The position numbers and the translations under genes were made by a program. This document shows positions 11,680 through 24,752 of a stretch of DNA of 64,000 nucleotides, piece by piece. Origin of the DNA: an uncultured Acidobacteriota bacterium (GTDB taxonomy: Bacteria; Acidobacteriota; Terriglobia; Acidiferrales; UBA7541); contig CAVPFO010000002.1 in the NCBI GenBank assembly GCA_963703805.1, positions 54,694-118,693 on the forward strand, in the 5' to 3' direction. The notes under the pieces were generated by a model. The model did no database searches and was not told where the DNA came from. It worked only from the letters and a program-made list of their open reading frames with translations. Numbering within the stretch: the first letter of the stretch is position 1; each line of letters begins with the position of its first letter.

Positions 11680-12150
11680 ATGTGGATGGGAGGATTCAAG
11701 GGAAAGAGAATGCACAGGGAAACTGCCTGTAATGATATCTGCGCAGGGTGCGAAGAGTCTCGGGCTCAGCATCTCGTTATAACGATGGAGCAGCGTATGC
11801 GTTGGTCTGACTCAATGGTTGCCGTGCGGGGGGGACTGCAGTCATCAGCGCAGCATTTGGGCGGTCGTGAAATTTCGGCAATGGAGCTCGCCGGCTATTG
11901 CTCGCGGGCATGTTCTCGATTTATTTTGTTCGACTACTGGCAAGATAGCGGCACGGCCTCGAAAGAGGGCGTTCACGTGGAACTCACGAAGACACATCAA
12001 GACCTGGCGGCGGAATTAGGAACAGTGCGAGAACTCGTCTCCCGCAATCTGAGCCGACTTCAGGCTGAGGGATTCCTAGAAGTGGACGGTCGGAGAATTA
12101 TAGTGAAAGACCTCGCGGGCCTAAAAAGCGAGCAGAAGAATTCTGAGTAA
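11573..12150 (+). pseudogene. Crp/Fnr-family transcriptional regulator, apparently degraded
   Basis: The C-terminal HTH is clear (LTKTHQDLAAELGTVRELVSRNLSRLQAEGFLEVDGRRIIVKD). N-terminal cNMP-domain-like pieces (CAIFNGLNQQKL..., GKLPVMISAQGAKSLGLSI) are in a different frame ending in a stop at 11782. A G7 run lies at 11828-11834. No single frame gives a full-length protein. Confidence 0.5.
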
Positions 12151-12182
12151 TTACCTCTCCTTTTTGATATTTGCACGGCCAT

Positions 12183-12198
12183 AGTGACTTTGGTCACT
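12183..12198. promoter_or_regulatory. perfect 16-bp palindrome AGTGACTTTGGTCACT (GTGA-N6-TCAC), candidate Crp/Fnr-type operator upstream of ric
   Basis: Perfect inverted repeat about 50 nt upstream of the ric ATG. Its architecture resembles TTGA-N6-TCAA FNR/FixK boxes. Confidence 0.4.
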
Positions 12199-12246
12199 GC
12201 CTCTTTGTGCCTTCCCATCCACACTATCAGCTGTCGCGGAGGAGTT

Positions 12247-12969
12247 ATGAATTTCAATGACGAAACCAAAGTGAAGGATATTGCGCTTTCGAATCCAGCG
12301 GTCAGGCAAATTCTCGAAGAGGCCGGGCTTGACTACTGCTGCGGTGGCGGGAAATCTCTGCAAGAAGCGTGCCTGCATGCAGAGGTTCCGACTGAAGAAA
12401 TCCTGAATCGTCTGCGTGAAAACAGCAAACAGGTAAATCCCGACGAAGCGAACTGGACATCTACATCCCTTGGTGTTCTGACACGGCATATCCGTGAGAG
12501 GCACCATCGGTACGTTCGTGAGGCAATCGTGCGGGTTCAGCCCTTATTGGGTAAAGTGGTAGCAAAGCACGGAAAGAATCATTCCGAACTCACAGATATT
12601 CAGAGACTCTTCGCCGAAGTTGCGCGAGAGATGATCATGCACATGCAGAAAGAGGAACAGATTCTGTTCCCATACATCGACGCACTGGAAAAGGCGAATA
12701 GTGCAAATGGCTCGGTCGAACCTCCCTTCTTCCAGACGGTGAAAAACCCGATTCACGCCATGATGAAAGAGCATGACGCTGCGGGAGAATTGGTGAAACA
12801 GATTCGCAAAGCCAGTATGGAATACACTGCTCCTGCGGATGCATGCACAAGTTATAAGGCTCTATACCAGGATTTGAGGGAATTCGAAGCGGACCTTCAC
12901 CAGCATGTGCATCTGGAAAACAACATCCTCTTCCCCCGTTCAGTAGAGATGGAAACTGCGGTCATCTAA
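12247..12969 (+). CDS. ric: iron-sulfur cluster repair di-iron protein (RIC/YtfE/ScdA family)
   Basis: GGAGGAG RBS. N-terminal ScdA_N-like GLDYCCGG. Hemerythrin-like His/Glu motifs HHRYVRE, HMQKEEQILFP, HDAAGE, HVHLENNILFP. Confidence 0.85.
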   Translation: MNFNDETKVKDIALSNPAVRQILEEAGLDYCCGGGKSLQEACLHAEVPTEEILNRLRENSKQVNPDEANWTSTSLGVLTRHIRERHHRYVREAIVRVQPLLGKVVAKHGKNHSELTDIQRLFAEVAREMIMHMQKEEQILFPYIDALEKANSANGSVEPPFFQTVKNPIHAMMKEHDAAGELVKQIRKASMEYTAPADACTSYKALYQDLREFEADLHQHVHLENNILFPRSVEMETAVI

Positions 12970-12984
12970 GGAAGGAATGGTGCC

Positions 12985-14352
12985 ATGTCGATTTCACTCG
13001 AAGCACCAGTGATAAGCGCCAAGAGCGAGCGCCATTCCTCGCTCTCTCCTGCCCAGATAATGGAGATTGCCCGCGCGCGTGAGGCGTCTCTTTCGCGCCT
13101 TCTCATGGCTTATATCAGCTCTGGCCTTGTTTTCATGCTACTGCCAGGCACATTCCTCGGGGTGTGGAACCTTCTCCAGATCAGCGGGCGCGAGAGCGCT
13201 GGGTCCATTTCGCCTGCATGGTTACAGGCTCACGGCCATGCACAGGTGTTCGGCTGGATAGGAAGCTTTATCTTGGGCATTGGTTTCTACTCGGTTCCGA
13301 AGCTACGCGGCGCAACGAAGCCAGCCTTCGGTGCTGCCTGGGCATGCTGGGTAATGTGGACAGTGGGTGTGGCGGTACGCTGGGCCGCAAATGTTTACGC
13401 GTGGCAATGGCGTTTGCTGCTTCCGCTCTCGGGCATCCTCGAACTGGCTGCGTTCCTGATTTTCTTCAGCGCGGTTTCACAGCACCGGCCCGAAGATTCC
13501 GGCAAGAGCCGACTGGAGCCGTGGATTTGGGTGGTTATCAGCGCAAGCACGGGGTTGATGTTGACGCTGATCGCGAACCTAGCGGTATGCTTCTATCTTG
13601 CGGTGCGCGGCGCAAGCCCAGCCTTGTCACACATTCTCGACCAACGCTATCTAGTGCTGGTCGCTTGGGGATTTCTGGTGCCGTTCGTTTGGGGATTCAG
13701 TACCAAATGGATGACAGTGTTCCTTGGTCTCAAGCCGGTTCATCCCAGGCTGCTCTTGGGCGCGCTGGTGGTGAACTTTGCGGGCGTTGTTTTGACGCTC
13801 TTGGGATGGGGAGCTGAAGCAACCGCCTTCTTTGTGATCAGCACAGCTCTGGCAATTGCGGCGCTGCGAATGTTCGAACCCGCACGACAGGAGCCAAAAA
13901 CGCGCGGCGTTCATCCCAGTTTCCCATTCTTCGTCCGCATGGCCTACGGCTGGCTTTTGGTGGCAGCATTACTTGGGGTAGGCGCGGTGGTCTGGGACTC
14001 TTCTGGCGGGATTTGGGGCGCTTCGCGGCACGCACTGACGGTCGGATTCATCGCGGTGATGGTCTTTTGCGTTGGCCAGCGCATTCTCCCTGCGTTTGCT
14101 GGGATGCGGCTATTGTGGAGTACCCGGTTGATGTTTGCTGGGCTCCTGCTGCTCACGGTTGGATGCACTCTGCGTGTCTCCAGTGAGGTTCTCGCATACC
14201 AGGGATATGCCAATTGGGCGTGGTCGGTTCTTCCTGTCTCGGCTATGCTCGAATTGGCCGGGATCACAGCATTTGCCATAAACATTTCCGGTACGTTTAT
14301 TCTGGAGCCGAGTCACGTGCAGAAACAGCCCATAGTCGTAGGGATAAACTAG
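12985..14352 (+). CDS. NnrS-family membrane protein
   Basis: 455-aa polytopic membrane ORF. QAHGHAQVFGWIGSFILGIGFY resembles the conserved His-containing helix of NnrS proteins. Starts 15 nt downstream of ric. Confidence 0.7.
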   Translation: MSISLEAPVISAKSERHSSLSPAQIMEIARAREASLSRLLMAYISSGLVFMLLPGTFLGVWNLLQISGRESAGSISPAWLQAHGHAQVFGWIGSFILGIGFYSVPKLRGATKPAFGAAWACWVMWTVGVAVRWAANVYAWQWRLLLPLSGILELAAFLIFFSAVSQHRPEDSGKSRLEPWIWVVISASTGLMLTLIANLAVCFYLAVRGASPALSHILDQRYLVLVAWGFLVPFVWGFSTKWMTVFLGLKPVHPRLLLGALVVNFAGVVLTLLGWGAEATAFFVISTALAIAALRMFEPARQEPKTRGVHPSFPFFVRMAYGWLLVAALLGVGAVVWDSSGGIWGASRHALTVGFIAVMVFCVGQRILPAFAGMRLLWSTRLMFAGLLLLTVGCTLRVSSEVLAYQGYANWAWSVLPVSAMLELAGITAFAINISGTFILEPSHVQKQPIVVGIN

Positions 14353-14390
14353 GGCATGTTCAGATGGCTATTTTGAGAGAGGAGTAAGTC

Positions 14391-14801
14391 ATGAGCGATA
14401 ATCCGAAACAATCAGCCAGCTCTGCCGCCATTCGTTCTCCGGGGCCATTGGAAAGTCCTATCCTTTCGTTTGACCTGAATGCTGAGATCGAACAGTTGCG
14501 TAGTGAGAATGCGTGGCAGGGTGGACGAAACTCAAAAACTCTAGTGAAACATCCAGATTTTCGAGTAGTACTCACAGTCCTGAAAACCAATGCGCGCCTT
14601 CACGAACATAAAGCCGCCGGTAGGATTTCTGTCCAGGCTGTCGCGGGCCGCATCCGAATGCATGTACAGGACAAGGTGATTGATCTGCCTGCTGGACACA
14701 TGCTGGCATTAGAGCGCGCGCTTCCGCACGATGTGGAAGCTCTTGAAGATAGCGCTTTTCTGCTGACTATCGCTTGGCCTGAGGACGCTACTAGAGTTTG
14801 A
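14391..14801 (+). CDS. cupin-domain protein (tentative)
   Basis: 136-aa ORF with a beta-rich core (HPDFRVVLTVLKTNARLHEHKAAGRISVQAVAGRIRMHV...LPAGHMLALE...PHDVEAL) typical of small cupins. Sits within the operon. Confidence 0.5.
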   Translation: MSDNPKQSASSAAIRSPGPLESPILSFDLNAEIEQLRSENAWQGGRNSKTLVKHPDFRVVLTVLKTNARLHEHKAAGRISVQAVAGRIRMHVQDKVIDLPAGHMLALERALPHDVEALEDSAFLLTIAWPEDATRV

Positions 14802-14823
14802 CCGGGCAGTTCGCGGAGGCAAT

Positions 14824-16491
14824 ATGATCGCGCTCGATCCGGCACACAGAGCCGTCCACTATCCGCCTGATCGCCGATTTCGCATCTGGATTCGACCTTC
14901 CATTCTGCTTGGAATCGGTATCGCGGCCCTCTCTGTCATCGCGGCGGCTTGGATCGAAGTCGCCGTGGCTGGGCTGCCTCATGTTCCCGCCGTTCCTCAG
15001 ATATATCCCAATAACTTCGCAGGGCCGCGCGGGTTTCCGGTCTGGGTGCGTTACTGCCACTTCTTTAATTTCCTTTTTGTGACGATGCTGATTCGCAGCG
15101 GGCTGTCCATTCTCATGGACCATCCTCGTCTATATTTCAACGATGGCTGCACGCCGGGGAGCGAATGGATCCGGCTTACCCCGCTAAAAGTTCCGCGCGA
15201 CCGACTCTGGACCGCGAAAGACGACGCCCGCTATATTTCGCCGTTAGTCGGGACACCGGGCTACCGGCACACAATCGGTATTGCACGAGTTTGGCACTTC
15301 ATCGACGTTCACGGCTTCATTATTACTGGCATTTTGTTCGTCATTATGCTCTTCGATACAGAGCAGTGGCGGCGTATTGTGCCAACTTCGCCGCTAGTTC
15401 TCTTGCAAGCATGGAACACGTTGGTGCACTATGCGACGTTTCATCTGCCAGCAGAACCGAATGGGTTTTATGGCTACAACGCATTGCAGCAGATTGCTTA
15501 TTTCACCGTCGTCTTTGTCTTTGGTCCCTTGGCGATTCTTACTGGGATCGCCATGTCGCCCGCCGTGGTGAATCGCTTTCCCTGGTACACACGAATCTTT
15601 GGTGGCAGGCAATCGGCCAGATCGATCCACTTCCTGACGATGTTCAGCTTCCTTGCATTCCTCGTCGTACACGTCACGTTGATTGTGATGACTGGATTCG
15701 CGCGCAATATGAACCACATTGTGCTCGGCACCGATGATCAGGGACATCTGGGCATGTATCTGGGTTTTGTCGGTATAGGCGTGGTCGTCGTCTCGTGGAT
15801 CGTGGCGCACTACATCTCGTGGAACCACGCGCGTGGATTGCAGCACGCGCTCAAGTCCGTGACCTATCCGATGCAGCTTCTGACGCTGAATCGCTTGAGC
15901 CCGCAGCAGAAGTATTCAGAGGAGGAAATCTCGCCGTACTTCTGGCCGAACGGGAAAATGCCGGTCCGGGACGATTGGAAGGGCCTGGCGGAAGCTGGCT
16001 TCGAGAACTTCCGGCTCAAGGTGGGAGGCCTCGTCGAAAGGCCCGTTGAGCTTTCCCTCGCCGACCTTGAGCGGTTGGGTGGGGCCGAACACATCACCAT
16101 GCATCATTGCATTCAGGGATGGAGCGGTGTCGCGAAGTGGGGCGGAATTCCAATGAAAACGCTCATTGAATTAGTGCGCCCAAAACCGGAGGCAAAAGTC
16201 GCGGCCTTTTTTTCTTTTGGCGAAGCACTCTACGGCGGTTCCTACTACGATACGCAAAGCCTGGAGAATCTGCTGAAGCCGCAATGCCTGCTGGCCCTGC
16301 GGATGAACGGACAACGGCTTCCGCAGGTATATGGAGCGCCGCTGCGGCTGAGAGTCGAGAACCAGCTTGGCTACAAGATGGTCAAATGGATCGAGCGTAT
16401 CGAGTTCATCGAGTCGGAAAAAGTGCTCGGCAAAGGAGAAGGCGGCAAAAACGAGGACGATGAGTATTTCGATTTGCTGCCCAACATCTGA
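14824..16491 (+). CDS. fusion of a membrane cytochrome b-like domain and a sulfite-oxidase-fold molybdopterin oxidoreductase domain (MsrQ/MsrP-like architecture in one polypeptide)
   Basis: The N-terminal ~340 aa are polytopic with conserved His in helices (RYCHFFNF, VWHFIDVHGF, SIHFLTMFSF...VVHV). The C-terminus carries FRLKVGGLVERPVELSLADL...ITMHHCIQGWSGVAKWGGIP...GAPLRLRVENQLGYKMVKWI, i.e. the Mo-binding domain. Confidence 0.8.
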   Translation: MIALDPAHRAVHYPPDRRFRIWIRPSILLGIGIAALSVIAAAWIEVAVAGLPHVPAVPQIYPNNFAGPRGFPVWVRYCHFFNFLFVTMLIRSGLSILMDHPRLYFNDGCTPGSEWIRLTPLKVPRDRLWTAKDDARYISPLVGTPGYRHTIGIARVWHFIDVHGFIITGILFVIMLFDTEQWRRIVPTSPLVLLQAWNTLVHYATFHLPAEPNGFYGYNALQQIAYFTVVFVFGPLAILTGIAMSPAVVNRFPWYTRIFGGRQSARSIHFLTMFSFLAFLVVHVTLIVMTGFARNMNHIVLGTDDQGHLGMYLGFVGIGVVVVSWIVAHYISWNHARGLQHALKSVTYPMQLLTLNRLSPQQKYSEEEISPYFWPNGKMPVRDDWKGLAEAGFENFRLKVGGLVERPVELSLADLERLGGAEHITMHHCIQGWSGVAKWGGIPMKTLIELVRPKPEAKVAAFFSFGEALYGGSYYDTQSLENLLKPQCLLALRMNGQRLPQVYGAPLRLRVENQLGYKMVKWIERIEFIESEKVLGKGEGGKNEDDEYFDLLPNI

Positions 16492-17126
16492 TGCAGAGAC
16501 CCGATTGGTTCGGCCAAGAGCGTCCTGGCCCTGACCACATTCTCTCCTTACTCCGAAAGCTACGGCTGGATTGGTTGCTGCATCACTTTCCGCCACGACT
16601 CGTGCGGTCACTCTATGTGTTTGTGAATGGCTTCATTACCATTGGGGTGCTTGCCCTGTTGGCGATTGTGAGCCGCAATCCGTTTGTTTTTCCATCGCTC
16701 GGACCCACTGCGTATCTCCTGTTCTTCTCGCCGCTCGGAAAAACGTCCAGCCCCCGAAATACTATTCTGGGGCACGCTATAGGACTCATCTGCGGTTATG
16801 CGGCGTTCGTTCTCACAGGCGCTGGAGCACTACCGTTTGGGGTGCACCCAGGTATCTTCTGGCCAAGGATCCTGGCTGCGGCTCTCTCGCTTTCGGCGAC
16901 AGGCGCGTTCATGGTCCTACTGGATGTCAGCCATCCGCCCGCTGGCGCAACTACGCTAATCGTTTCTCTCGGAATTATTTCGAGACCGCGTGAACTGGTT
17001 ATCATTGAAGTTGCAGTGTTCTTGCTCGTTGCTCAGGCTTTGGTAATCAATCGGCTCGCCGGATTACCCTACCCCATGTGGAATGCTGCGGCCTCGACCA
17101 AACCAGTGAATGAGGACTCGGATTAG
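16491..17126 (+). CDS. HPP-family membrane protein
   Basis: Signature DVSHPPAGATTLIV. The ATG overlaps the upstream TGA (TGATG at 16489-16493). Confidence 0.8.
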   Translation: MQRPDWFGQERPGPDHILSLLRKLRLDWLLHHFPPRLVRSLYVFVNGFITIGVLALLAIVSRNPFVFPSLGPTAYLLFFSPLGKTSSPRNTILGHAIGLICGYAAFVLTGAGALPFGVHPGIFWPRILAAALSLSATGAFMVLLDVSHPPAGATTLIVSLGIISRPRELVIIEVAVFLLVAQALVINRLAGLPYPMWNAAASTKPVNEDSD

Positions 17127-17146
17127 CGCCCCATCCCGTCACTTGG

Positions 17147-17500
17147 CTACACCGTGGAGCGTTGAAGAAGTGCACGCAGCACAACGGCTTGGTTGCGCCG
17201 TTCGTCACGGGCCGAATAGATCAGCGTTATCGTGAGATATGCCTTTTCCAGTTCTCGGAACTGTTCAGTTAATTCTGCCTTTGCTCTCAACTCTTCGCGA
17301 TAGCGCTTCTGAAATTCGATCCAGCGCTTGGCATCGTGCGCAAACCACTTGCGGAGTTGGTCGGACGGTGCAATCTCCTTCATCCACAGATCGATTCTAG
17401 CTTTCTCTTTTGAAACACCACGCGGCCAAATCCTGTCCACCAGGACTCGGTAGCCATCGGCTGGCTTGGCCGGAACATAAATTCGCTTAAGCTTGAACAT
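17147..17500 (-). CDS. DUF488 (YeaO-like) family protein
   Basis: MFKLKRIYVPAKPADGYRVLVDRIWPRGVSKEKARIDLWMKEIAPSDQLRKWF is typical of DUF488/YeaO proteins. Confidence 0.8.
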   Translation of the reverse strand: MFKLKRIYVPAKPADGYRVLVDRIWPRGVSKEKARIDLWMKEIAPSDQLRKWFAHDAKRWIEFQKRYREELRAKAELTEQFRELEKAYLTITLIYSARDERRNQAVVLRALLQRSTV

Positions 17501-17520
17501 CGCGGAGTCCTATCAGCAGG

Positions 17521-17607
17521 CGCGCCCCCTGTGCCAAAAGTGTGCCAGAATCCGACCTTTTCATGCAATTGGGGTTAGCTTTGAGCGAAAAGCAGATGTC
17601 CCAAGTT
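17521..17607. repeat. direct repeat copy A (~87 nt, contains the 30-nt core at 17566-17595)
   Basis: Aligns by hand with 23636-23721. The core CAATTGGGGTTAGCTTTGAGCGAAAAGCAG is identical in both copies. Confidence 0.9.
17531..17547 (-). promoter_or_regulatory. TGGCAC-N5-TGGCAC motif (sigma54 -24/-12-like, GG-N10-GC) upstream of the DUF488 gene
   Basis: The minus strand reads CTGGCACACTTTTGGCAC about 30 nt upstream of the DUF488 ATG. The same motif is conserved in repeat copy B (23645-23661). Confidence 0.3.
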
Positions 17608-17667
17608 CAGATTATTCTAAAGAAACTTCGAAAGGGATCATAGAGGTTTTGGGTTCTTCCCCGTATT

Positions 17668-18213
17668 TCAATCTGTAGCCGGTGCGGACTTGGCCTTCAT
17701 TCGATCTTGGATTTCGTCGAAGTGCCAAGGGCGAAAATCGTGAGTGTCCACTCCAACATCCATCGAAAGTGAAGTATCGGGGGCCAACAGTTTTCCGTGG
17801 GAGTGCCCATACAAATGCCAAGCTCCCCGCGATGACTGATTCCAGACTCTCATTGCATAGTGGCAGAGCACGATTCGTTGCCCATTGAGCGAGACTTCCG
17901 CGAGATCATTGAGCCACGCAAATTCCTGAGTAAGTTTGCGCGTTTCTTTGTCATGGTTTCCCGCGAGTGCAAATATCTTCTTGCAGCGAATCTGTTGGCG
18001 AAGCTCCGCAGCTCGTGCCTTTGGGCCGATGCAGAAATCTCCGAGGAAGTACAGAATATCGTTCGCTTTTACACGCGAGTTCAGGCGTTCTAAAATCTCT
18101 TGATTCATTTCCTCGACAGTTTGGAACGGGCGATTGCAGTATCGAATGATGTTCTTGTGCCCCAGATGAAAGTCGGCGGTGAACCAAATGTTGAGCACAG
18201 CTCGTTTCTCCAA
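17668..18213 (-). CDS. metallophosphoesterase (calcineurin-like)
   Basis: Metal-binding motifs DFHLGH, LGDF, GNHD and GHSHG in canonical order. Confidence 0.8.
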   Translation of the reverse strand: MEKRAVLNIWFTADFHLGHKNIIRYCNRPFQTVEEMNQEILERLNSRVKANDILYFLGDFCIGPKARAAELRQQIRCKKIFALAGNHDKETRKLTQEFAWLNDLAEVSLNGQRIVLCHYAMRVWNQSSRGAWHLYGHSHGKLLAPDTSLSMDVGVDTHDFRPWHFDEIQDRMKAKSAPATD

Positions 18214-18252
18214 TAAGGTACACGGAATGAGTATTCTATGCCGGGAGGTGAG

Positions 18253-18489
18253 ATGAGCAAGTCCAATCGCACAGACGCAACAGGTTCAATTGCTTCGTCC
18301 GGCGACGAACGTCCATGGACAGTTCAGCAAGCCGCTCAATTCCTTGGTGTGAGCCCACAAACTGTCTATCTATGGGTGGAGCGAAAGCAAATCCCCCATT
18401 TGCGCGTAATGGGCCGAAATATTCGCTTCCTCAGATCAGACCTAGAAACGTTCCGTGCCTCATTCAAACAAGACATAGACAAGGTTTAG
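18253..18489 (+). CDS. excisionase-family helix-turn-helix DNA-binding protein
   Basis: WTVQQAAQFLGVSPQTVYLWVERKQIPHLRVMGRNIRFLRSDLETF matches the excisionase/MerR-like HTH pattern. GGGAGG RBS before ATG 18253; the ORF also opens at ATG 18238. Confidence 0.7.
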   Translation: MSKSNRTDATGSIASSGDERPWTVQQAAQFLGVSPQTVYLWVERKQIPHLRVMGRNIRFLRSDLETFRASFKQDIDKV

Positions 18490-18674
18490 GTGGTTACAAC
18501 ACGCAGGCACGGCTCTTGCGGCTGAAAGCGGATCGCAATGGGCTGTTCCCGTACCGTTCATCTGGCTCAACTATGTGCTAACGCAGGCGGACTTCAATTG
18601 GGGGTAAAGGGCGTTATTATCCGTATTGACTGAAATCACCGAGGGCGCGTTCCTCGCTGTCTGGAAAAACTCTA

Positions 18675-19139
18675 ATGATCCCCATGAACGAAACATACAT
18701 GCTCGACACGAACGTTTTTAACGCCGTGCTTGATGGGAGGGTATTACTGGCGTCGTCCGTGGGCCGTATTCTCCTTGTTACCGGCATCCAAAGGGATGAA
18801 TTAGGCGCTACCGCAAAACCCGAAAGACGCGCGGCTCTTCTCGCGGTATATAGGGAGATCCGTCCCACCTCGCTGCCCGCGTCTAGCTTCGCTTTCGATA
18901 TCGAAGGTGCCGGTTTCGATCAAGCCTATTGGAACGACGGGAGTGGAAACTTTGAGAAGATGGTTGCTCGACTCCGGCAACTCGACCACAAGAACAAAAG
19001 CACATCCAACCAAGTGCGAGATATTTTAATCGCTGAGACAGCAATAAAGAATCGAGCGACTTTAGTCAGCGGGGATTCCAACTTACGGCAGGTGGTTACT
19101 GAATTCGGAGGCAACGCCATAGACCCGGATGATCTATGA
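18675..19139 (+). CDS. PIN-like (VapC-like) domain protein
   Basis: N-terminal YMLDTNVFNAVL and C-terminal RDILIAETAIKNRATLVSGDSNL match the first and last acidic PIN motifs. No antitoxin-sized ORF upstream. Confidence 0.6.
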   Translation: MIPMNETYMLDTNVFNAVLDGRVLLASSVGRILLVTGIQRDELGATAKPERRAALLAVYREIRPTSLPASSFAFDIEGAGFDQAYWNDGSGNFEKMVARLRQLDHKNKSTSNQVRDILIAETAIKNRATLVSGDSNLRQVVTEFGGNAIDPDDL

Positions 19140-19915
19140 ATGAACTTAGCGGCGCAGAGCGTTTCGAGCAGCTTTCAGACGAAAACAAAGCGCGTTACCT
19201 GGCGATTAATCGGCAGATGGTCCGACTCGCGAGAGATTATGCGGTCCCTATTATCTTCGCTCCTCCGCCAAGCGTCGGAGGCAAAATTAACGGGGCGAGC
19301 GGCTGTGTGGTGCAACTTGCCTCGGGCCTGTTTGTTGTCACTGCTTCCCACGTTTTGGCGGGTTACGAAAAGCGTGCGGCAGAAGGAGAGCGGCTTAACT
19401 GGCAAGTCGGCAACCTCCCTCCCTTCGATCCGCTCCCCCGCGTCGAGTGGAGGAGCCGTGAGAAGGATATAGTGCTCCTGCGCATTTCCGGGAATGAAGC
19501 ACGCAACATCGGACCTTGTACCATTTCGGCTCCTCGGCGCTGGCCGGTACAACCTCCAAAGGAGGGACAATTAGTGCTGGTAGCCGGTTACCCGAAAGGG
19601 TTGCGAGAAGAAAACCCATCTGAGGCGTGGATCGGTTCGGGTCCTTATTCGGCAATATTTCGAGTAACCGTTGCGGAAGCCAACCGCTGCAAATGCCTGA
19701 TTGAGCGCAGAAACCTTATCGGCTTCGAAGAAGGACGTTTGCCCGAGGCGGGCGCGGATATGGGCGGATTGAGCGGCGGGCCGGTGTTGCTAGTTGACAC
19801 TTTCGACTTCCCGCTAATCGGCATTGTGACCGACCGTTGCGAAATGAGTCTCGCAGAGCTGGAAATTCTCCAGTTTGCGACTCTTGAAAATGTAATGATT
19901 GGCGAGGATTCCTGA
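19136..19915 (+). CDS. trypsin-like (S1 family) serine protease
   Basis: His-Asp-Ser triad contexts VVTASHVLAG, EKDIVLLRI, MGGLSGGPVLL. The ATG overlaps the PIN-like gene stop (ATGA, 19136-19139). Confidence 0.7.
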   Translation: MNELSGAERFEQLSDENKARYLAINRQMVRLARDYAVPIIFAPPPSVGGKINGASGCVVQLASGLFVVTASHVLAGYEKRAAEGERLNWQVGNLPPFDPLPRVEWRSREKDIVLLRISGNEARNIGPCTISAPRRWPVQPPKEGQLVLVAGYPKGLREENPSEAWIGSGPYSAIFRVTVAEANRCKCLIERRNLIGFEEGRLPEAGADMGGLSGGPVLLVDTFDFPLIGIVTDRCEMSLAELEILQFATLENVMIGEDS

Positions 19916-19953
19916 ACGATCCACGACCAGGCGCACAGGGACGATTCGTTCTC

Positions 19954-21195
19954 TTAGCCCGGAACGAGAGCAACTTCGCCATCGGTCATGCGCAAAGTGC
20001 CAAAGAGTTTGTCTCCGGCTGCCATCTCCGTCGGTGACGACGGCGGCGACGGCCTGATCGTAAGCCCCACCTCATAACCGGCCTTCTCGCGGTCAATGAC
20101 AATCAAGCAGTGGGTTTTACCAAAGAATGCCATCGCGGCGATCATCAAAATCTGCGTTCGTTTATTCAACTCCTCGGGTTCAATGCCCGCACAGGAGCCG
20201 AACACAAATACCCACTCGGGCTTGGAGTCGAAGTGCAGCGCCCTGTAAGTGAATCCGTCCTTAGAATCACCGAACTTCTCGATTGCTCCAAGGAACGCGC
20301 TGCCAAGTTCCGATCTCTCTCGCAAACCCAAGCTCGCAAGCACGGCCTGCATCTTCAAATAATTAGCGCGGCTATCGGGCGCGTCGTATCGCGCAAGGGC
20401 CTCGGGGGATAGTCCCGCCGCGTAGTCGTCCCGGCGGGTCGCGAGCTGATCCGCAACATGCTCAACCAACCTGCCGTTCAGATCATGTTCTCGCTTCGAT
20501 CTCAAAGCCTGGCGCAATTCATCGCGCTGCGCCGCGACTGCGATGGCTGCGTCGGCCTTCCCCGCGCAGCCAGCCAAGCTGCCGCGTTGCAACAGGTAGA
20601 ACTCGAACAGCGCCCGCTCATCGCCAATGACTCGAAGATCCGAATACGGCAAAGCGCGCCTGGCATCCAGGTAAGCGAGAACTTCCGGCGCGGTTCGTAG
20701 CTCAATCGCAATGTTTAGAAAATCATTCAGTGAAAGATACGTGATCGGCGTACCGTGGTACTGCAACGGAAGATCGTCGGCCCGCGCGTTCAGATCGACG
20801 CGCTCGAATACCTCCACAAGCACGATGCCGTGGTTGATGTCCGGCAATCCATCGGGAAGCTCGACCCTCCCTCTGCGTGGATGGTCGCACCAGATCGGCT
20901 TACCGTGCGCAGTGCGCAACGCACCGCAAAGCTGCGAGGTCGCTCTCTTCGCCTCCTTCAAACCCCACGACGAAGTTTTTTCTGGAGTGCGGGCGAAAGG
21001 GTCCAGTTGCGTCTTCTGGGACATCAATATGCCAACGCCAGGATAGGCGACGAGCAAATCCGCAACTTCCTTTTGCGTTCCACCGTTCATGGTTTGCAGG
21101 CTGCGAAACACGAACTCGGATATGAACGGCAGTGCGAGAAAATCCCTCACGTATCGCTCGGCCCAGATCCCGCGTTCCTCTAACGCTTCCGACAT
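19954..21195 (-). CDS. hypothetical protein with N-terminal NERD/PD-(D/E)xK-like nuclease motif
   Basis: 413-aa ORF. KEVADLLVAYPGVGILMSQKTQ resembles the NERD pattern (E.D.L....G....E.K) with SQK in place of ExK. The rest has no recognisable domain. Confidence 0.45.
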   Translation of the reverse strand: MSEALEERGIWAERYVRDFLALPFISEFVFRSLQTMNGGTQKEVADLLVAYPGVGILMSQKTQLDPFARTPEKTSSWGLKEAKRATSQLCGALRTAHGKPIWCDHPRRGRVELPDGLPDINHGIVLVEVFERVDLNARADDLPLQYHGTPITYLSLNDFLNIAIELRTAPEVLAYLDARRALPYSDLRVIGDERALFEFYLLQRGSLAGCAGKADAAIAVAAQRDELRQALRSKREHDLNGRLVEHVADQLATRRDDYAAGLSPEALARYDAPDSRANYLKMQAVLASLGLRERSELGSAFLGAIEKFGDSKDGFTYRALHFDSKPEWVFVFGSCAGIEPEELNKRTQILMIAAMAFFGKTHCLIVIDREKAGYEVGLTIRPSPPSSPTEMAAGDKLFGTLRMTDGEVALVPG

Positions 21196-21272
21196 AATTG
21201 CTTCTTCACCTCTCTCCTGGGAATAGCTTATTTCGATCAGTCGATTCTGGTCAATGCCGATCCATACCCCAG

Positions 21273-21328
21273 ATGGCGAGATTGTGGCGAGAATATGGTA
21301 GAATTGTGGCGAGATTAGAGGCGAGATT
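21273..21328 (+). repeat. five tandem ~11-nt repeats (consensus RTGGCGAGATT) abutting the fic start codon
   Basis: ATGGCGAGATT / GTGGCGAGAAT / ATGGTAGAATT / GTGGCGAGATT / AGAGGCGAGATT, followed by ATGGCGAAGAA, which contains the fic ATG (21329). Confidence 0.85.
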
Positions 21329-22471
21329 ATGGCGAAGAAATATGTCCACGAACTTCGTGAGTGGCCCGGATTTACATGGGATTCAAAGAGGCTTGCCTCT
21401 TTGCTATCCGATGTCCGGTTGCGTCAGGGATTGTTGGTCGGGAAGATGCGTGGCTATGGCCTCGCTTCCCGGTGGACCGCGACCTTAAAAGTTCTTACCG
21501 AAGAAACGATTAAGTCCAGCGCAATAGAAGGCGTGAAGCTTGATCCAGAAAACGTGCGTTCTTCCCTCGCTCGGCGGCTTGGGCTTGAGGTGGGTGGGCT
21601 CACAGCGCACAAGGATCGAACCGTGGATGGCGTAGTTGAAATGATGTTGGACGCGACACAACAATTCAGCAAGCCGCTAACAAAGGAACTGTTGTTCGAG
21701 TGGCACGCGCATCTCTTTCCGGGCGTTCGCACGACGCGCGATAAATTCCGAGTTGGCGCATGGCGTGATGACAGCCAGGGCCCAATGCAAGTCGTGTCTG
21801 GGCCAGTCGGTCGTCACAAGGTTCATTACGAAGCGCCTACGGCTGATCGCGTCGAGGGCGAGATGGGAAAGTTTCTCGCGTGGTTCGACGGCAACGAACA
21901 AGAAGATCCCCTCCTAAAGGCGGGAATTGCGCATTTGTGGTTCGTAACGATCCACCCGTTTGAGGACGGCAACGGCAGAATCGGAAGAGCAATCGCTGAA
22001 ATGTGTTTGGCCAGATCTGATGGGAGCGCTCAGCGCTTTTACAGTATGTCCTCGCAAATTCTCGAAGATCGGAAGGACTACTACGAAGTTCTTGAGAGAA
22101 CGCAGGCAGGTCGGCTAGACATCACGGAATGGCTGACGTGGTTCCTCGGTTGCTTGGATAGGGCCATCGAGCAATCGAATCAAATCACCAGCAGCGCTCT
22201 GGAGAAGGAATTGTTCTGGAAAGGTTTGACGCAAAGGAAAGTCTCTCTCAATCATCGGCAAAACAAAGTCCTGAACAAGTTATTCGGAGAGTTTGAAGGA
22301 AAGCTGACGAGAGAAAAGTGGATGAAAATGACTAAGGCTTCCTCTCGTACTGCCCTTCGAGATATCGAAGAACTGATTGCCCTGGGAGTTTTGGAACAAG
22401 AGGAAGCGGGAGGGAGGAGCACTTCCTACAGGCTAAATAGGATCGTCAGGCAGACAGAAGGACGCAAATGA
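21329..22471 (+). CDS. Fic/DOC-family protein (class II, N-terminal inhibitory helix)
   Basis: Core motif HPFEDGNGRIGRAIAE. Inhibitory motif S...EG (SSAIEG) lies upstream of the core. DUF4172-like N-terminus (REWPGFTWD). C-terminal winged-helix-like tail. Confidence 0.9.
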   Translation: MAKKYVHELREWPGFTWDSKRLASLLSDVRLRQGLLVGKMRGYGLASRWTATLKVLTEETIKSSAIEGVKLDPENVRSSLARRLGLEVGGLTAHKDRTVDGVVEMMLDATQQFSKPLTKELLFEWHAHLFPGVRTTRDKFRVGAWRDDSQGPMQVVSGPVGRHKVHYEAPTADRVEGEMGKFLAWFDGNEQEDPLLKAGIAHLWFVTIHPFEDGNGRIGRAIAEMCLARSDGSAQRFYSMSSQILEDRKDYYEVLERTQAGRLDITEWLTWFLGCLDRAIEQSNQITSSALEKELFWKGLTQRKVSLNHRQNKVLNKLFGEFEGKLTREKWMKMTKASSRTALRDIEELIALGVLEQEEAGGRSTSYRLNRIVRQTEGRK

Positions 22472-22477
22472 ACTTCG

Positions 22478-23626
22478 GTGAGCAAGAACGTGACCGGTAG
22501 AAACGAACAGTGTCCCTGTGGTAGCGGCAAAAAGTTCAAGAAATGCTGCCTAGAGAAACCCCGAGTAATTCCCGCAGGACCACCGCCGGAAGTCTTCATG
22601 AAAGCAGCTTTACAAATGAGACAGAAGCAACAGGCACAGGAGGATTGGATTGCGCGGTACGGCCACGTAAGACCTGTGATCGCGACGGATAACTGGGGTA
22701 AGAAGTTCGTCGCCATTCGCAACCGACTGTCGTACTCAGAAGCTTGGAAGTTCATACCGGATTTTCTGCTCGACTATGTTCCACACGTATTTGGAAAAGA
22801 TTGGTGGGACGCAGAGGTAGCTAAACCGGAAGGCGAGAGGCACCAAGTATTTCAGTGGCGGGTGGGTTGCCTGCGTCACAAGCAGGCTGGCGTTAATGAT
22901 GGCGAGAAACGAATAGTAATGCCGGATGGCATGACTGGGGCCTATTTGTCCTTCGCGTTCAATCTGTTCGCGATAGAGGACAACAGCAGATTAGACGACC
23001 TCTTACTTCATAGGCTGAAGCACCCCGAGCAGTTTCAAGGAGCTTTACATGAAATCTTCGCGGAAGCCACTTGTCTGCGTGCCGGTTTTACAATCGAAAA
23101 GGAAGACGAGCGTGACCCTTCGACACGACACGCGGAGTTTACGGCAACGCATAAGATTACAGGTGAACGATTCTCAGTTGAGGCAAAGAGCAAACACAGG
23201 CCCGGTGTTCTTGGGCAAGCAGGGGTCGCACAACCGCATGAGAAGCTCAGGCTCACATTTGGTCGGCTCATCAATGACGCCGCCGCGAAAAATCCTAAGC
23301 ATCCTCTGGTGATTTTTCTCGACACTAACTTGCCATTCCGTTCGGCACACCATGTCTACGGTAACGATCCAGCCGTTCCATCGCGATATATTGCAGAGCT
23401 TTGTAAGCGCATCCGCAACGAACACGGCGGACAATATCCTTTCGTCATGTTGGCGCTCACGAACATTCCGCACCACTACGCCGCCGCTCATGAAACCGAC
23501 CCTCCAAAACACATTCACTCGATGATGACGGAACATCCGGCTACAAGCAAAGGTCAAGCTTTGACGGCTCTTTACAATGCCGTTCCGCTGTACGGAAACA
23601 TACCCAACGAGTTTCCAAGATTCTGA
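22478..23626 (+). CDS. SEC-C metal-binding motif protein with PD-(D/E)xK-like nuclease core
   Basis: N-terminal CPCGSGKKFKKCC. Central HEIFAEATCLRAGF...RHAEFTATHKITGERFSVEAKSK resembles a restriction-endonuclease-fold E...(D/E)xK core. GTG start 7 nt after the fic stop. Confidence 0.75.
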   Translation: MSKNVTGRNEQCPCGSGKKFKKCCLEKPRVIPAGPPPEVFMKAALQMRQKQQAQEDWIARYGHVRPVIATDNWGKKFVAIRNRLSYSEAWKFIPDFLLDYVPHVFGKDWWDAEVAKPEGERHQVFQWRVGCLRHKQAGVNDGEKRIVMPDGMTGAYLSFAFNLFAIEDNSRLDDLLLHRLKHPEQFQGALHEIFAEATCLRAGFTIEKEDERDPSTRHAEFTATHKITGERFSVEAKSKHRPGVLGQAGVAQPHEKLRLTFGRLINDAAAKNPKHPLVIFLDTNLPFRSAHHVYGNDPAVPSRYIAELCKRIRNEHGGQYPFVMLALTNIPHHYAAAHETDPPKHIHSMMTEHPATSKGQALTALYNAVPLYGNIPNEFPRF

Positions 23627-23635
23627 CGGCAGACA

Positions 23636-23721
23636 CGCGCCGCTGTGCCAGAACTGTGCCAAAACCTTACCTTTTCGATCAATTGGGGTTAGCTTTGAGC
23701 GAAAAGCAGGCTCCCCAAGTT
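23636..23721. repeat. direct repeat copy B (~86 nt, contains the 30-nt core at 23680-23709)
   Basis: See copy A. Starts 10 nt after the SEC-C gene stop. Carries GTGCCAGAACTGTGCCA (23645-23661). Confidence 0.9.
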
Positions 23722-24061
23722 GTTGAAAAGATTGAAAACGCAAACCAACAAATGGAAGCGGTGAAGTGGCGAATCGCCCTCAGAAGGTAGACGCTGCAAA
23801 GTCTGGTCGATGGGCTGAGATATTTCTCCACGGTCCCGTATCCTCTGGATTTGTTCTTCGGAAAACCGTAGCCACTCAGCTTAAAACGCAACCACGCGGG
23901 CCTGCTCCAGATCGTAGCTCGGCATATCGGAGATCGTTGAGCCGCGTACATCAGAAGTTGGGAACAAGTTGGGAACAATAACCGCCGAATACCCCCATAA
24001 ACCGTGATATAAGATGCGCGAAAGACATGGACGAGACAACTACTTAGCGTTTTAGAGTTTA

Positions 24062-24107
24062 CCTTGGGCGCAGGAGGCCTGGAGTTCGAATCTCCACGCC
24101 CCGACCA
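24062..24107 (+). pseudogene. orphan 3' fragment of tRNA-Pro(UGG): anticodon loop through CCA, no 5' half
   Basis: Reads CTTGGGC (loop with U33, anticodon TGG, G37), GCAGG, AGGCC, T arm TGGAG-TTCGAAT-CTCCA, acceptor strand CGCCCCG, discriminator A, CCA. The upstream sequence cannot pair with GCAGG or CGCCCCG. Confidence 0.8.
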
Positions 24108-24278
24108 ATTCAGCTTGCCTTCGAGGACACAACTCCAAAGTGTGCAAAGCAGGTGGGGGCGGGATCGGGCACGGAACACGCGTATTTTTGTCGCATCGTC
24201 CGCACTCCGTACGCAACGGACGATACGATCGGCACCCAGGTTGACAATGTAACGAAGTGGTGTGAGAGTCGTGCGAAC

Positions 24279-24752
24279 ATGACCGCTTCTCACGTGTTGT
24301 TGCTCGCCCTTTTAATCGGCATCCTCTCCGGCTTGCGCGCGCTGAGCCCTATTGCGGTGACGGCTTGGGGCGCTTACCTAGGATGGTTCAATCTGCCGCG
24401 GCCGTATTCGCTGATCGGCACGATCGCTGGCGTGGCGATTCTTTCGCTGGCGGCAATCGCCGAACTCGTAAACGACAAGCTGCCAAAAACACCGCCGCGC
24501 ACGGCACCGCCAAGCGTGGTGATTCGCTGCCTGCTCGGCGCGTTTGCAGGAGCGTGCATCGCAATGGCTGGCATGCAAAGCGCGATTGCGGGAGCAGGCG
24601 CGGGCATTGTGGGAGGGCTAATCGGCACATTTGGCGGTTATCAGGTGCGGATGCGGCTCGTGAAGGCGCTCGGCACGCCGGATTTTCCCATCGCGATCCT
24701 CGAAGATCTTGTCACGATTCTCGGCTCGCTGTGGGTAGCCAGCCGGTTCTAA
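24279..24752 (+). CDS. DUF4126-family membrane protein
   Basis: Glycine/alanine-rich polytopic ORF (LLIGILSGLRALSPIAVTAW..., AIAELVNDKLPKTP, GGLIGTFGGYQVR). ATG 24279 chosen over the longer ORF that opens at 24153. Confidence 0.65.
   Translation: MTASHVLLLALLIGILSGLRALSPIAVTAWGAYLGWFNLPRPYSLIGTIAGVAILSLAAIAELVNDKLPKTPPRTAPPSVVIRCLLGAFAGACIAMAGMQSAIAGAGAGIVGGLIGTFGGYQVRMRLVKALGTPDFPIAILEDLVTILGSLWVASRF

What the first reader, a model, noticed from the sequence alone, without database searches (positions are those of the whole stretch)
17521..23721. 6.1-kb seven-gene accessory cassette bracketed by ~87-nt direct repeats with a 30-nt identical core, no integrase
The repeats:
- 17521-17607 and 23636-23721 align end to end by hand, with one indel. 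The upstream flank is roughly three quarters identical; similarity fades after about 12 nt downstream of the core.
- They share the perfect 30-mer CAATTGGGGTTAGCTTTGAGCGAAAAGCAG (17566-17595 and 23680-23709).
- Copy A ends 60 nt before the 3' end of the first cargo gene. Copy B starts 10 nt after the stop of the last.

The cargo is all mobile or defence-flavoured: a metallophosphoesterase, an excisionase-type HTH, a PIN-like + S1 protease pair, a NERD-like protein, and a Fic + SEC-C/PD-(D/E)xK-like pair. By eye the cassette looks more AT-rich than its flanks (not computed).

The geometry is that of attL/attR. However, no integrase, transposase or relaxase is present, so the cassette is either a decayed or satellite element, or was captured by repeat-mediated recombination.
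Basis: partly seen in the sequence, partly recalled or inferred. Interest (0 to 1): 0.7.

Follow-up and report, generated by a model that had tools for sequence, protein, structure and literature searches.

The report
Stacked gene islands ending in tRNA-linked repeats
The two repeats are real, but they are separate copies of a roughly 150-base DNA module found across the phylum Acidobacteriota at joints between imported genes and broken tRNA genes, so the cassette is one layer of a stacked, integrase-less genomic island rather than a self-contained mobile element.

Summary
The repeats exist exactly as described. The 30-mer occurs twice in the window, against none expected by chance.

They are not an attL/attR pair of this cassette:
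- A 23-nt part of the core occurs in at least 119 loci of Acidobacteriota genomes. There it belongs to a module ('E') of constant length, about 150 bp.
- In 97 of those 119 loci, the right end of E abuts a tRNA gene broken in its anticodon loop.
- Variable cargo genes lie on the other side of E and travel with it.
- Copy A is a truncated Pro-type E and copy B a full Arg(TCT)-type E. Each is closer to copies in other species than to the other.

The accessory DNA actually ends at a displaced tRNA-Pro 3' half (24063-24107), which follows a separate integrase-type arm. A 99.8% identical 6.5-kb segment sits at the same tRNA in a divergent host.

The window holds no integrase and no intact tRNA.

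Best reading: cargo blocks accumulated one after another at a tRNA-Pro hot spot, and each block ends in an E arm. The recombinase that acts on E and the role of its invariant palindromic core are unknown.

Verdict: moderately interesting, a new variant of a known kind.

The parts
17514..17609 (+). E copy A, a truncated Pro-type module. It contains CAGCAGGCGCGCCCC; two 11-bp direct repeats (17529-17539 CTGTGCCAAAA and 17540-17550 GTGTGCCAGAA); a spacer; and the invariant palindromic core (30-mer at 17566-17595, with stem GCTTT 17578-17582 pairing with AAAGC 17589-17593). Family similarity ends near 17609. The right about 90 nt of the module and the tRNA joint are missing.
   Evidence: nhmmer E=1e-23 to the family profile, model positions 3-87; nearest copies are Pro-type, 92-96%; breakpoints in relatives at 17523 (L003), 17582/3 (L127) and 17597 (L001)
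23640..23795 (+). E copy B, a full-length Arg(TCT)-type module. It contains direct repeats at 23643-23653 and 23654-23664; the core 30-mer at 23680-23709; a decayed loop-like joint CTCAGAAGG at 23779-23787; and an 8-nt remnant TAGACGCT (23788-23795) of the reverse-complemented tRNA-Arg(TCT) 5' half.
   Evidence: (E=9e-25); nearest copies L056, L048, L022 and L008 are all Arg(TCT)-type; the same joint to the following DNA is present in L008 and L022
17668..23626 (.).
- metallophosphoesterase, 17668-18213 (-)
- excisionase-family HTH_17, 18238-18489 (+)
- weak PIN, 18675-19139 (+)
- Trypsin_2 protease, 19136-19915 (+)
- unknown 413 aa, 19954-21195 (-)
- Fic/DUF4172 (SoFic-like), 21329-22471 (+)
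- SEC-C-motif protein, 22478-23626 (+)
   Evidence: Pfam, PADLOC, NCBIfam; GC 53.3%; found in other contexts in L127, L002 and L004; Fic and the phosphoesterase lie left of an E copy in L119, and Fic alone in L110
23796..24062 (+). Arm of a second, canonical tRNA-Pro-integrating element. It carries tandem 11-bp repeats AGTTGGGAACA at 23956-23966 and 23967-23977, about 90 nt before the crossover.
   Evidence: In L022 the same arm is followed by the tRNA-Pro 3' half, then TTGGGTCCA repeats and an integrase gene. TTGGGAACA repeats also lie next to the integrase in L083.
24063..24107 (+). Displaced 3' half of tRNA-Pro(TGG): anticodon loop CTTGGGC, stem GCAGG, T arm, acceptor and CCA. This is the real outer edge of the accessory DNA. 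The crossover lies at or before 24079.
   Evidence: BLAST to tRNA-Pro; sequence; weak Rfam tRNA-like-domain hit at 24067-24107. The window and L127 are identical up to 24079, and then the T stem differs with compensatory changes and the flanks diverge. ARAGORN finds no intact tRNA.
11941..17513 (.). Cargo block 1, which ends in E copy A: a truncated CRP-like gene, ScdA/hemerythrin, an NnrS-like gene, a small cupin-like ORF, a molybdopterin oxidoreductase fused to cytochrome b561, an HPP membrane protein, and DUF488 (17147-17500, -).
   Evidence: L001 is 98% identical to 11941-17597 and has unrelated DNA on both sides. In L088, from another species, the same oxidoreductase and HPP genes lie left of a full E joined to a tRNA-Pro 5' half. 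Pfam.

Best explanation
**What the repeats are**
- Each repeat is part of a separate copy of a conserved DNA module of about 150 bp, called E here.
- E is the element-side arm of a site-specific recombination joint in the anticodon loop of tRNA genes.
- Reading along E, the blocks are: two 11-bp direct repeats of the kind that lie beside integrase genes in these genomes; a 20-nt spacer; an invariant 34-nt palindromic core; about 65 nt carrying short conserved blocks; and then the tRNA loop.
- Imported cargo always lies on the direct-repeat side, and the broken tRNA gene on the other side.

**How the window is built**
- Two such cargo blocks lie head to tail.
- Block 1 spans about 11.9-17.6 kb. 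It carries nitrosative-stress-type genes and DUF488, and ends in the truncated copy A.
- Block 2 is the 6.1-kb defence/toxin-flavoured cassette, and ends in the full copy B.
- A third, canonical integrase-type arm follows, and then a displaced tRNA-Pro 3' half at 24063-24107.
- The locus is therefore a tRNA-Pro integration hot spot where modules piled up one after another and the recombinase genes were lost or never present.

**What is shown**
- The family exists and its members have a constant length.
- E is linked to tRNA loops.
- Cargo is linked to the direct-repeat side.
- A and B belong to different subfamilies.
- There is a tRNA-Pro boundary, and the same island occurs in a different host.

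**What is inferred**
- E is bound by a tyrosine recombinase and accessory proteins.
- The modules are moved in trans, or by homologous exchange through the invariant core.
- The order of events.
For: **Family and layout**
Nearly all are Acidobacteriota of several orders, and several genomes hold 2-3 copies.
- The distance from the first direct repeat to the tRNA joint is 153-158 nt in 38 diverse copies of all subfamilies.

**Link to tRNA loops**
- In 97 of 119 loci the right end of E abuts a tRNA fragment that starts in the anticodon loop.
- The fragments are Pro(TGG) 47 full and 29 partial; Arg(TCT) 6 and 4; Ala(TGC) 7; Val 2; Arg(TCG) 1; Lys 1.
- ARAGORN finds no intact tRNA at these joints in 13 of the 14 loci it was run on.
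- tRNA-Ala has the palindromic loop centre TTGCAA and is the only target joined in both orientations. This is what a crossover inside the loop predicts.

**Cargo side**
- Ten Bryobacterales-type loci from GTDB species representatives share the DNA left of E: 36 of 36 comparable pairs align over at least 500 nt. None of 21 pairs share the DNA beyond the tRNA fragment.
- Where the island is short, an intact tRNA of the same kind lies at its far end: L097, L057 and L026 for Pro, and L126 for Arg(TCT).
- These short islands hold only cargo. In L057 and L126, integrase genes sit beyond the tRNA.

**Stacking and repeat class**
- Thirteen loci hold two or more E copies in tandem, 7 of them about 160 nt apart and of mixed tRNA type.
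- The reverse complement of E's direct repeats reads TTGGCACAG. This is the same class and 11-bp spacing as the TTGGGAACA and TTGGGTCCA repeats next to integrases.

**Window boundary**
- The window matches L127 at 99.83% over 17583-24108. Identity ends inside the tRNA-Pro 3' half, while RecQ downstream is only 72% identical.
- L001 diverges from the window exactly at the right edge of the invariant core, at 17597.
Against: - No recombinase has been tied to E. No integrase family lies consistently next to it, and the short complete islands have none.
- The one integrase family followed up (L125 type, 635 relatives) belongs to a tRNA-Gly joint that has no E.
- A 34-nt block that hardly varies across several orders is far more conserved than att arms usually are.
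- An extended inverted repeat around the loop, expected for core-type binding sites, is not supported: 4.6 of 12 complementary positions against 3.6 +/- 1.6 by chance.
- Most joints displace the 5' half of the tRNA, which is the unusual orientation.
- The window has no intact tRNA-Pro, so the stacking order cannot be read directly.
- No excision scar or circle junction for the cassette was found.
- Most of the comparison DNA comes from metagenome assemblies, where chimeric joins at repeats are possible.
Confidence: 0.6

Rival explanations
1. The two repeats are the attL and attR of a single decayed or satellite element of 6.1 kb, made by one integration into a site that contained the 30-nt core.
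For: - The repeats are direct, bracket seven accessory genes and share an identical core.
- An excisionase-family gene lies inside, and GC content is lower.
- The cassette moves between genomes.
Against: - The core is identical in at least 119 loci of other species, so its identity says nothing about a local duplication.
- A and B are of different subfamilies and are each closer to foreign copies.
- Both have the same polarity relative to cargo as all family members.
- The segment shared with L127 runs past copy B to the tRNA-Pro half.
- L002 shares 17001-22456, which includes copy A and DUF488 but not copy B.
Confidence: 0.08
2. E is a gene for a non-coding RNA, or a transcribed leader, linked to tRNA loci. 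One example would be a transcript started at the promoter of the displaced tRNA 5' half and running through E on the minus strand. On this view the repeats are two paralogous RNA genes.
For: - Sequence conservation of the core hairpin is extreme, and the module has a constant length.
- The displaced tRNA 5' halves keep promoter-like upstream regions that point into E.
Against: - There is no Rfam family, even at E<=10.
- RNAalifold on either strand predicts only the invariant hairpin, with 0-1 compensatory pairs.
- Conservation comes as short blocks at fixed spacing rather than as stems.
- The partner tRNA type and orientation vary.
- Copy A lacks more than half of the module.
Confidence: 0.12
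3. E is a selfish miniature repeat (MITE/REP-like) that spreads by transposition and merely tends to land near tRNA genes. On this view it has nothing to do with the cassette's boundaries.
For: - It is multi-copy, short and non-coding, sometimes occurs in tandem, and is confined to one phylum.
- Two IS families insert in or beside it.
Against: - It has no terminal inverted repeats: 4.4 of 20 positions match.
- Its right end is always fused to the anticodon loop at the same register, not to random targets.
- Its left flank moves with it while the right flank does not.
Confidence: 0.05
4. Copy A is simply the promoter/regulatory region of DUF488. On the minus strand its direct repeats read TGGCAC-N5-TTGGCA, which is sigma-54-like, and lie about 30 nt upstream of the DUF488 ATG. 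Copy B would be a stray duplicate.
For: The motif and its spacing fit the -24/-12 consensus except at one position (direct reading).
Against: - The GG and GC dinucleotides are not kept in other subfamilies, which read GTGCAC... and TGACAC....
- In L003, DUF488 is intact and E is absent.
- Copy B points into the 3' end of a convergent gene.
Confidence: 0.03

Closest known systems
Genomic islands integrated in tRNA genes by tyrosine (P4-like) integrases, as catalogued by Islander (PMC4383910)
   Same: - The crossover lies in a tRNA gene, and a displaced tRNA fragment marks the island end (24063-24107).
- Tandem 11-bp arm repeats lie near the crossover.
- The cargo consists of defence and toxin genes.
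- The same island is found at the same tRNA in different hosts.
   Different: - There is no integrase and no regenerated tRNA in the window.
- E has a 34-nt core that is invariant across a phylum.
- E is usually joined to the 5' half of the tRNA, not the 3' half.
Tycheposons and tRNA-seeded islands of Prochlorococcus (bioRxiv 10.1101/2020.12.28.424599)
   Same: - Successive integrations at one tRNA push older elements inward.
- Islands contain partial tRNAs and degenerate remnants.
- Elements lie adjacent, separated only by an att remnant.
   Different: - The phylum is different.
- Tycheposons are defined by their own integrase and replication genes, and none is present here.
- No conserved 150-bp arm module is described for them in the passages read.
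Integrative elements that reverse the usual target orientation, supplying the 5' part and promoter of the tRNA (Zhao and Williams 2002, recalled from memory; the title is cited in PMC6563490 and PMC1635311). Also phages whose integration leaves the tRNA broken (PMC10865867; abstract only read).
   Same: - E joints displace the tRNA 5' half together with its promoter.
- In four short islands an intact tRNA with its own promoter region lies at the far end.
   Different: - Those are single autonomous elements with an integrase.
- E islands seen here are integrase-less, multi-copy and spread over five tRNA isoacceptor types.
Recombinase-less modules moved in trans: IMEX elements at dif, pdif modules of Acinetobacter plasmids, and CIMEs flanked by ICE att sites (own knowledge)
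   Same: - Cargo is bracketed by copies of a conserved recombination site.
- The modules carry no recombinase gene of their own.
- They occur in tandem arrays.
- The site stays conserved because the enzyme is encoded elsewhere.
   Different: - No trans-acting enzyme has been identified here.
- The site is a 150-bp arm plus a tRNA loop, not a 28-bp dif-like site.
- Mobility in trans is inferred, not shown.
Integron gene cassettes with attC sites (own knowledge)
   Same: The units are arrays of cargo plus a repeat with a hairpin.
   Different: - The cassette holds seven genes on both strands.
- The repeat is conserved in sequence rather than only in structure.
- No intI or attI was found.
- The anchor is a tRNA gene.

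Membership tests
   A versus B is 86.6% over 67 nt. A versus foreign Pro-type copies is 92-96%, and B versus foreign Arg(TCT)-type copies is 81-89% over 117-154 nt.
   Variants break at 17001, 17523, 17582/3, 17597, 22456 and about 24079. None leaves a single hybrid repeat. One metagenome scan with the left flank of A plus the core found only an unrelated locus.
tRNA-integrating genomic island (tyrosine integrase type) | A displaced tRNA fragment at one end, with the crossover inside the tRNA gene | tested here: met
   A tRNA-Pro(TGG) 3' half lies at 24063-24107. Identity with L127 stops at 24079, and the T stems then differ with compensatory changes.
tRNA-integrating genomic island (tyrosine integrase type) | A regenerated intact tRNA at the other end | tested here: not met
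   ARAGORN finds no tRNA gene in the 64-kb window.
tRNA-integrating genomic island (tyrosine integrase type) | An integrase gene inside the element | tested here: not met
   No hit in the window's ORFs of 80 aa or more with three integrase queries at E<=1. Pfam of the cassette genes shows none.
Module E as an att arm | A fixed position next to a recombination crossover, with cargo on one side only | tested here: met
   Constant length of 153-158 nt up to the loop. A tRNA fragment abuts in 97 of 119 loci. The left flank is shared in 36 of 36 pairs and the right flank in 0 of 21.
Module E as an att arm | A cognate recombinase that binds its repeats | not testable with these tools
   No integrase is consistently adjacent. 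The repeats resemble those beside integrases, but binding needs an experiment or a genome-wide co-variation study.
Structured non-coding RNA | A conserved secondary structure supported by compensatory changes, or a match to a curated family | tested here: not met
   No Rfam hits. On both strands only the invariant hairpin is predicted, with 0-1 compensatory pairs. An invariant hairpin says nothing for or against structure.
MITE / REP-type repeat | Terminal inverted repeats and dispersed insertion sites | tested here: not met
   The ends match at 4.4 of 20 positions. The right end is always joined to an anticodon loop.
Integron cassette array | Mostly single promoterless ORFs, each followed by an attC, next to intI/attI | tested here: not met
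   Seven genes on both strands lie between the repeats. No integrase is in the window.

The most novel reading that the evidence does not exclude
E-terminated blocks form a phylum-wide system of integrase-less gene cassettes. A conserved recombinase encoded elsewhere, helped by a protein that binds the invariant palindromic core, inserts them, stacks them and shuffles them at tRNA anticodon loops. This would be an integron-like or IMEX-like cassette economy anchored on tRNA genes. It would explain four things: why the arm is far more conserved than its cargo, why cargo-less E units pile up in tandem, why arrays mix tRNA types, and why no integrase travels with E.
Probability: 0.2. Interest if true: 0.75.

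Novelty: new variant of a known kind. Interest (0 to 1): 0.5.

Why it matters
Acidobacteriota are among the most abundant soil bacteria, and their mobile DNA is poorly charted. A short, easily searched sequence (the 34-nt core) that flags the edge of imported DNA at tRNA genes across the phylum would be a practical marker. It could be used to map genomic islands, defence cargo and recombination hot spots in thousands of soil genomes. If the modules prove to be moved by an enzyme encoded elsewhere, that would add a tRNA-anchored cassette system to the short list of recombinase-less mobile modules. For this window alone the result is more modest: the cassette is one layer of a composite, decayed island.

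Tried and rejected
- **Protein-coding reading of the repeat.** An open frame runs through it (...PLGLALSEKQIPQ...). However, the third codon positions are the least variable, stops and starts are not conserved, and entropy shows no coding periodicity.
- **Sigma-54 promoter on the minus strand.** The motif is not conserved across subfamilies.
- **Minus-strand ORF 23679-24293 (204 aa).** It has no family match, and its tblastn 'homologues' only mirror the nucleotide conservation of E, so it is treated as spurious.
- **'End-2' motif (TGTCTCA-N-GGGGTTCAC).** It was first taken for the other end of the element. It is the terminal repeat of an IS of about 1.5 kb that inserts beside E.
- **Integrase next to E in L125.** It looked like the cognate enzyme because repeats of E's type precede it. 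Its family in fact sits 60-100 nt after a tRNA-Gly 5' half, and none of the five loci fetched contains E.
- **Extended inverted repeat around the loop.** Not above chance.
- **Resemblance of 17598-17667 to tRNA promoter regions.** A profile of 49 such regions gives no hit in the window.
- **Phage origin.** The 23-mer has no match in 2.9 million viral contigs.
- **Empty-site search from the right flank.** Exact-protein look-ups of DUF4126 (two start codons) and of the pyridine-nucleotide oxidoreductase found nothing.

Full report
**1. The observation**

The 30-mer CAATTGGGGTTAGCTTTGAGCGAAAAGCAG is present at 17566-17595 and 23680-23709 on the + strand. It occurs nowhere else in the window even with three mismatches, and none is expected in shuffles. 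The two copies align at 86.6% over 67 nt. There is one indel upstream, and about 12 similar bases follow the core.

The distances to the flanking genes are as stated. The seven genes between the repeats are:
- a metallophosphoesterase;
- an excisionase-family HTH protein (TIGR01764 above its cut-off);
- a weak PIN protein;
- a Trypsin_2 protease;
- a 413-aa protein with no family match;
- a Fic/DUF4172 protein (PADLOC SoFic, 4.8e-49);
- a protein with only an N-terminal SEC-C motif.

The cassette has 53.3% GC. This is lower than any other 6-kb window of the sequence (minimum 54.1%, mean 57.8 +/- 1.7%). The window has no tRNA gene and no integrase-like ORF.

**2. The repeat is a member of a phylum-wide family**

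A 23-nt piece of the core was searched in one genome per species of bacteria and archaea. All but one are in Acidobacteriota (Terriglobia, Bryobacterales, Acidiferrales/Acidoferrum), and several genomes carry two or three copies.

Similarity around the core extends over a discrete unit. In 38 diverse copies the distance from the first direct repeat to the right-hand joint is 153-158 nt, whatever the subfamily. I call this unit E.

Its conserved blocks, in order, are:
- two 11-bp direct repeats (CTGTGCCAAAA, with the subfamily variants CCGTGGC/CCGTGTC and CTGTGCAC);
- a 20-nt spacer;
- an almost invariant 34 nt, TTGGGGTTAGCTTTGAGCGAAAAGCAGATTCCCC, containing the palindrome GCTTT-N6-AAAGC;
- about 65 nt with short motifs (TGGAG...TTGGAG);
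- a joint.

**3. The right end of E is a tRNA anticodon loop**

In 97 of 119 loci, E is followed by a tRNA fragment that begins in the anticodon loop:

| Fragment | Loci |
|---|---|
| tRNA-Pro(TGG) 5' half, reverse complement | 47 full, 29 partial |
| tRNA-Arg(TCT) 5' half | 6 full, 4 partial |
| tRNA-Val(CAC) | 2 |
| tRNA-Arg(TCG) | 1 |
| tRNA-Lys(TTT) | 1 |
| tRNA-Ala(TGC), sense 3' half | 5 |
| tRNA-Ala(TGC), reverse-complemented 5' half | 2 |

ARAGORN finds no intact tRNA at these joints in 13 of the 14 loci it was run on. In the fourteenth, L047, it later called the E right end plus the Ala 3' half a tRNA-Ala. What follows the loop is always GCAG(G/A).

tRNA-Ala has the palindromic loop centre TTGCAA and is the only target joined in both orientations. 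This is what a crossover inside the loop predicts.

**4. Cargo lies on the other side and moves with E**

Ten Bryobacterales-type loci, each from a different GTDB species representative, share an AlbA_2-like gene and E. On the left side, all 36 comparable pairs align over at least 500 nt. Beyond the tRNA fragment, none of 21 pairs aligns.

The genes left of E are diverse accessory genes: AbiEi-like genes, Fic, a metallophosphoesterase and IS transposases.

In four loci the island is short enough to see both ends. An intact tRNA of the same kind, with its own promoter-like region, lies at the far left:
- L097, about 130 nt away;
- L057, 0.5 kb away;
- L126, tRNA-Arg(TCT), 2.7 kb away;
- L026, 4.8 kb away.

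These islands hold only cargo. Integrase genes lie beyond the tRNA, on its 3' side, in L057 and L126.

Thirteen loci have two or more E copies in the same orientation. Seven of them are about 160 nt apart, with no cargo between the copies and with mixed tRNA types.

**5. DNA site or RNA?**

Several tests argue against an RNA or a coding sequence:
- No Rfam family matches, even at E<=10.
- RNAalifold on either strand predicts only the invariant hairpin, with 0-1 compensatory pairs.
- There is no coding periodicity.
- There are no terminal inverted repeats.
- The 23-mer has no match in viral contigs.

The reverse complement of E's direct repeats (TTGGCACAG, 11-bp spacing) is of the same class as the TTGGGAACA and TTGGGTCCA repeats that lie between tRNA genes and P4-like integrase genes in these genomes.

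Short conserved blocks at fixed spacing next to a crossover point fit a protein-bound recombination arm better than an RNA. The palindromic core looks like the site of a dimeric DNA-binding protein, but that is inference.

**6. What the window contains**

*Copy A (17514-17609)* is a Pro-type E cut off about 14 nt after the core. Its nearest relatives are Pro-type copies of other species, at 92-96% identity.

*Copy B (23640-23787)* is a full Arg(TCT)-type E with a decayed joint and an 8-nt remnant of tRNA-Arg. Its nearest relatives are Arg(TCT)-type copies. The same joint to the following DNA is present in L008 and L022.

*After copy B* comes a different arm (23796-24062) carrying the repeats AGTTGGGAACA x2 at 23956-23977. 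A tRNA-Pro(TGG) 3' half then follows at 24063-24107.

*Contig L127* matches 17583-24108 at 99.83%. Identity stops at 24079. The T stem then differs with compensatory changes, and the flanks are unrelated. RecQ further on is only 72% identical. The 6.5-kb segment has therefore been transferred recently between divergent hosts into the same tRNA, and its outer edge is the tRNA-Pro crossover, not copy B.

*To the left,* L001 shares 11941-17597 at 98% and then diverges exactly at the right edge of the invariant core. In L088, from another species, the same oxidoreductase and HPP genes lie left of a full E joined to a tRNA-Pro 5' half.

The window thus holds two E-terminated blocks in series, then a canonical arm and a displaced tRNA half.

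**7. Other variants**

- L002 shares 17001-22456, which is DUF488, copy A and the cassette up to Fic. Its flanks on both sides are different.
- In L003, E is replaced at 17523 by the end of an IS. The terminal motif of that IS is found 20-40 nt upstream of E in about 13 other loci.
- In L127 an IS110-family element sits in the loop of copy A's hairpin, at GCTTT^GAGCG.
- None of these variants is an empty site for the cassette.

**8. Interpretation**

The most economical reading is serial accretion of cargo modules at a tRNA-Pro hot spot. This is the pattern described for tRNA-seeded islands elsewhere (PMC4383910). Each module ends in an E arm, and the recombinase genes were lost or are supplied in trans.

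The invariant core also gives every E copy about 30 bp of perfect homology with every other copy. Homologous exchange through it is therefore a plausible second route, and the L001 breakpoint fits that.

Three things remain unknown: the enzyme acting on E, the reason for the extreme conservation of the core, and whether the modules are still mobile. I put 0.6 on the att-arm and stacking explanation.

**9. What did not work**

- The integrase family next to E in L125 (635 relatives) turned out to belong to a tRNA-Gly joint without E.
- An extended inverted repeat around the loop is not supported.
- A resemblance of 17598-17667 to tRNA promoter regions is not significant.
- Three look-ups from the right flank failed.
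- The single metagenome scan returned only an unrelated locus. That locus, L128, repeats the layout of copy B: E, a short tRNA remnant, an arm with direct repeats, and a tRNA-Pro 3' half.

Noticed in passing
window 24063-24107 (and 23956-23977): A tRNA-Pro(TGG) 3' half lies on the + strand just upstream of the DUF4126 gene, preceded by two tandem AGTTGGGAACA repeats. ARAGORN does not report it because it is only half a tRNA. It is the real edge of the accessory DNA.
   Followed up: yes
L127:295-1762 (insertion point equals window 17582/17583): An IS110-family element (DEDD_Tnp_IS110 + Transposase_20, 482 aa) is inserted in the loop of the invariant hairpin of copy A (GCTTT^GAGCG). The core may be a preferred target of this sequence-guided IS family.
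   Followed up: partly
L003:9940-9978; also L019, L037, L042, L052, L059, L070, L088, L100, L103, L104, L107 and L122, about 20-40 nt left of E: An IS of about 1.5 kb, with the terminal motif TGTCTCA-N5-8-GGGGTTCAC, sits at nearly the same place beside E in about 13 species (site GCAGGCGC^G). In L003 it replaces E next to DUF488. An IS3-family transposase lies next to it in L088.
   Followed up: partly
L129:9880-10001, L130:9785-10001, L131, L132, L134:9880-10001, L125: A large, highly conserved tyrosine-integrase family (635 hits at E<=1e-20; the 120 listed hits are 66-93% identical) starts 60-100 nt after a tRNA-Gly 5' half that is broken in the anticodon loop. No 3' half follows. Islands that displace the 5' half of a tRNA therefore seem common in this phylum.
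   Followed up: partly
window 11680-12150: The CRP-like ORF has only the HTH domain (156 aa), whereas the L001 homologue is 289 aa with a cNMP-binding domain. Homology with L001 starts at 11941 inside it. The left edge of block 1 therefore truncates this gene next to a GH15 glycosidase.
   Followed up: no
L097 (E-oriented -211 to +170): This is a minimal arrangement: an intact tRNA-Pro, its promoter region, E with a 20-nt insertion between its two direct repeats, and then a decayed second copy of the tRNA 5' half plus promoter. It amounts to an 'island' of about 350 nt with no cargo at all.
   Followed up: partly
L093 (E-oriented +97 to +242): An intact tRNA-Pro is followed on its 3' side by a 72-nt sequence that resembles a short, hairpin-less version of E (TTTTCAGTAATTTG..., then two direct repeats). 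This hints that E descends from the integrase-proximal arm downstream of tRNA genes.
   Followed up: no
window 23679-24293 (-): A 204-aa minus-strand ORF spans copy B and the following arm. It has no family match, and its apparent homologues only reflect nucleotide conservation of E, so it is probably not a gene.
   Followed up: partly
L064 (JABDGM010000065.1): One of the E loci is in a genome labelled Planctomycetota. This may be a binning error or a rare transfer outside the phylum.
   Followed up: no
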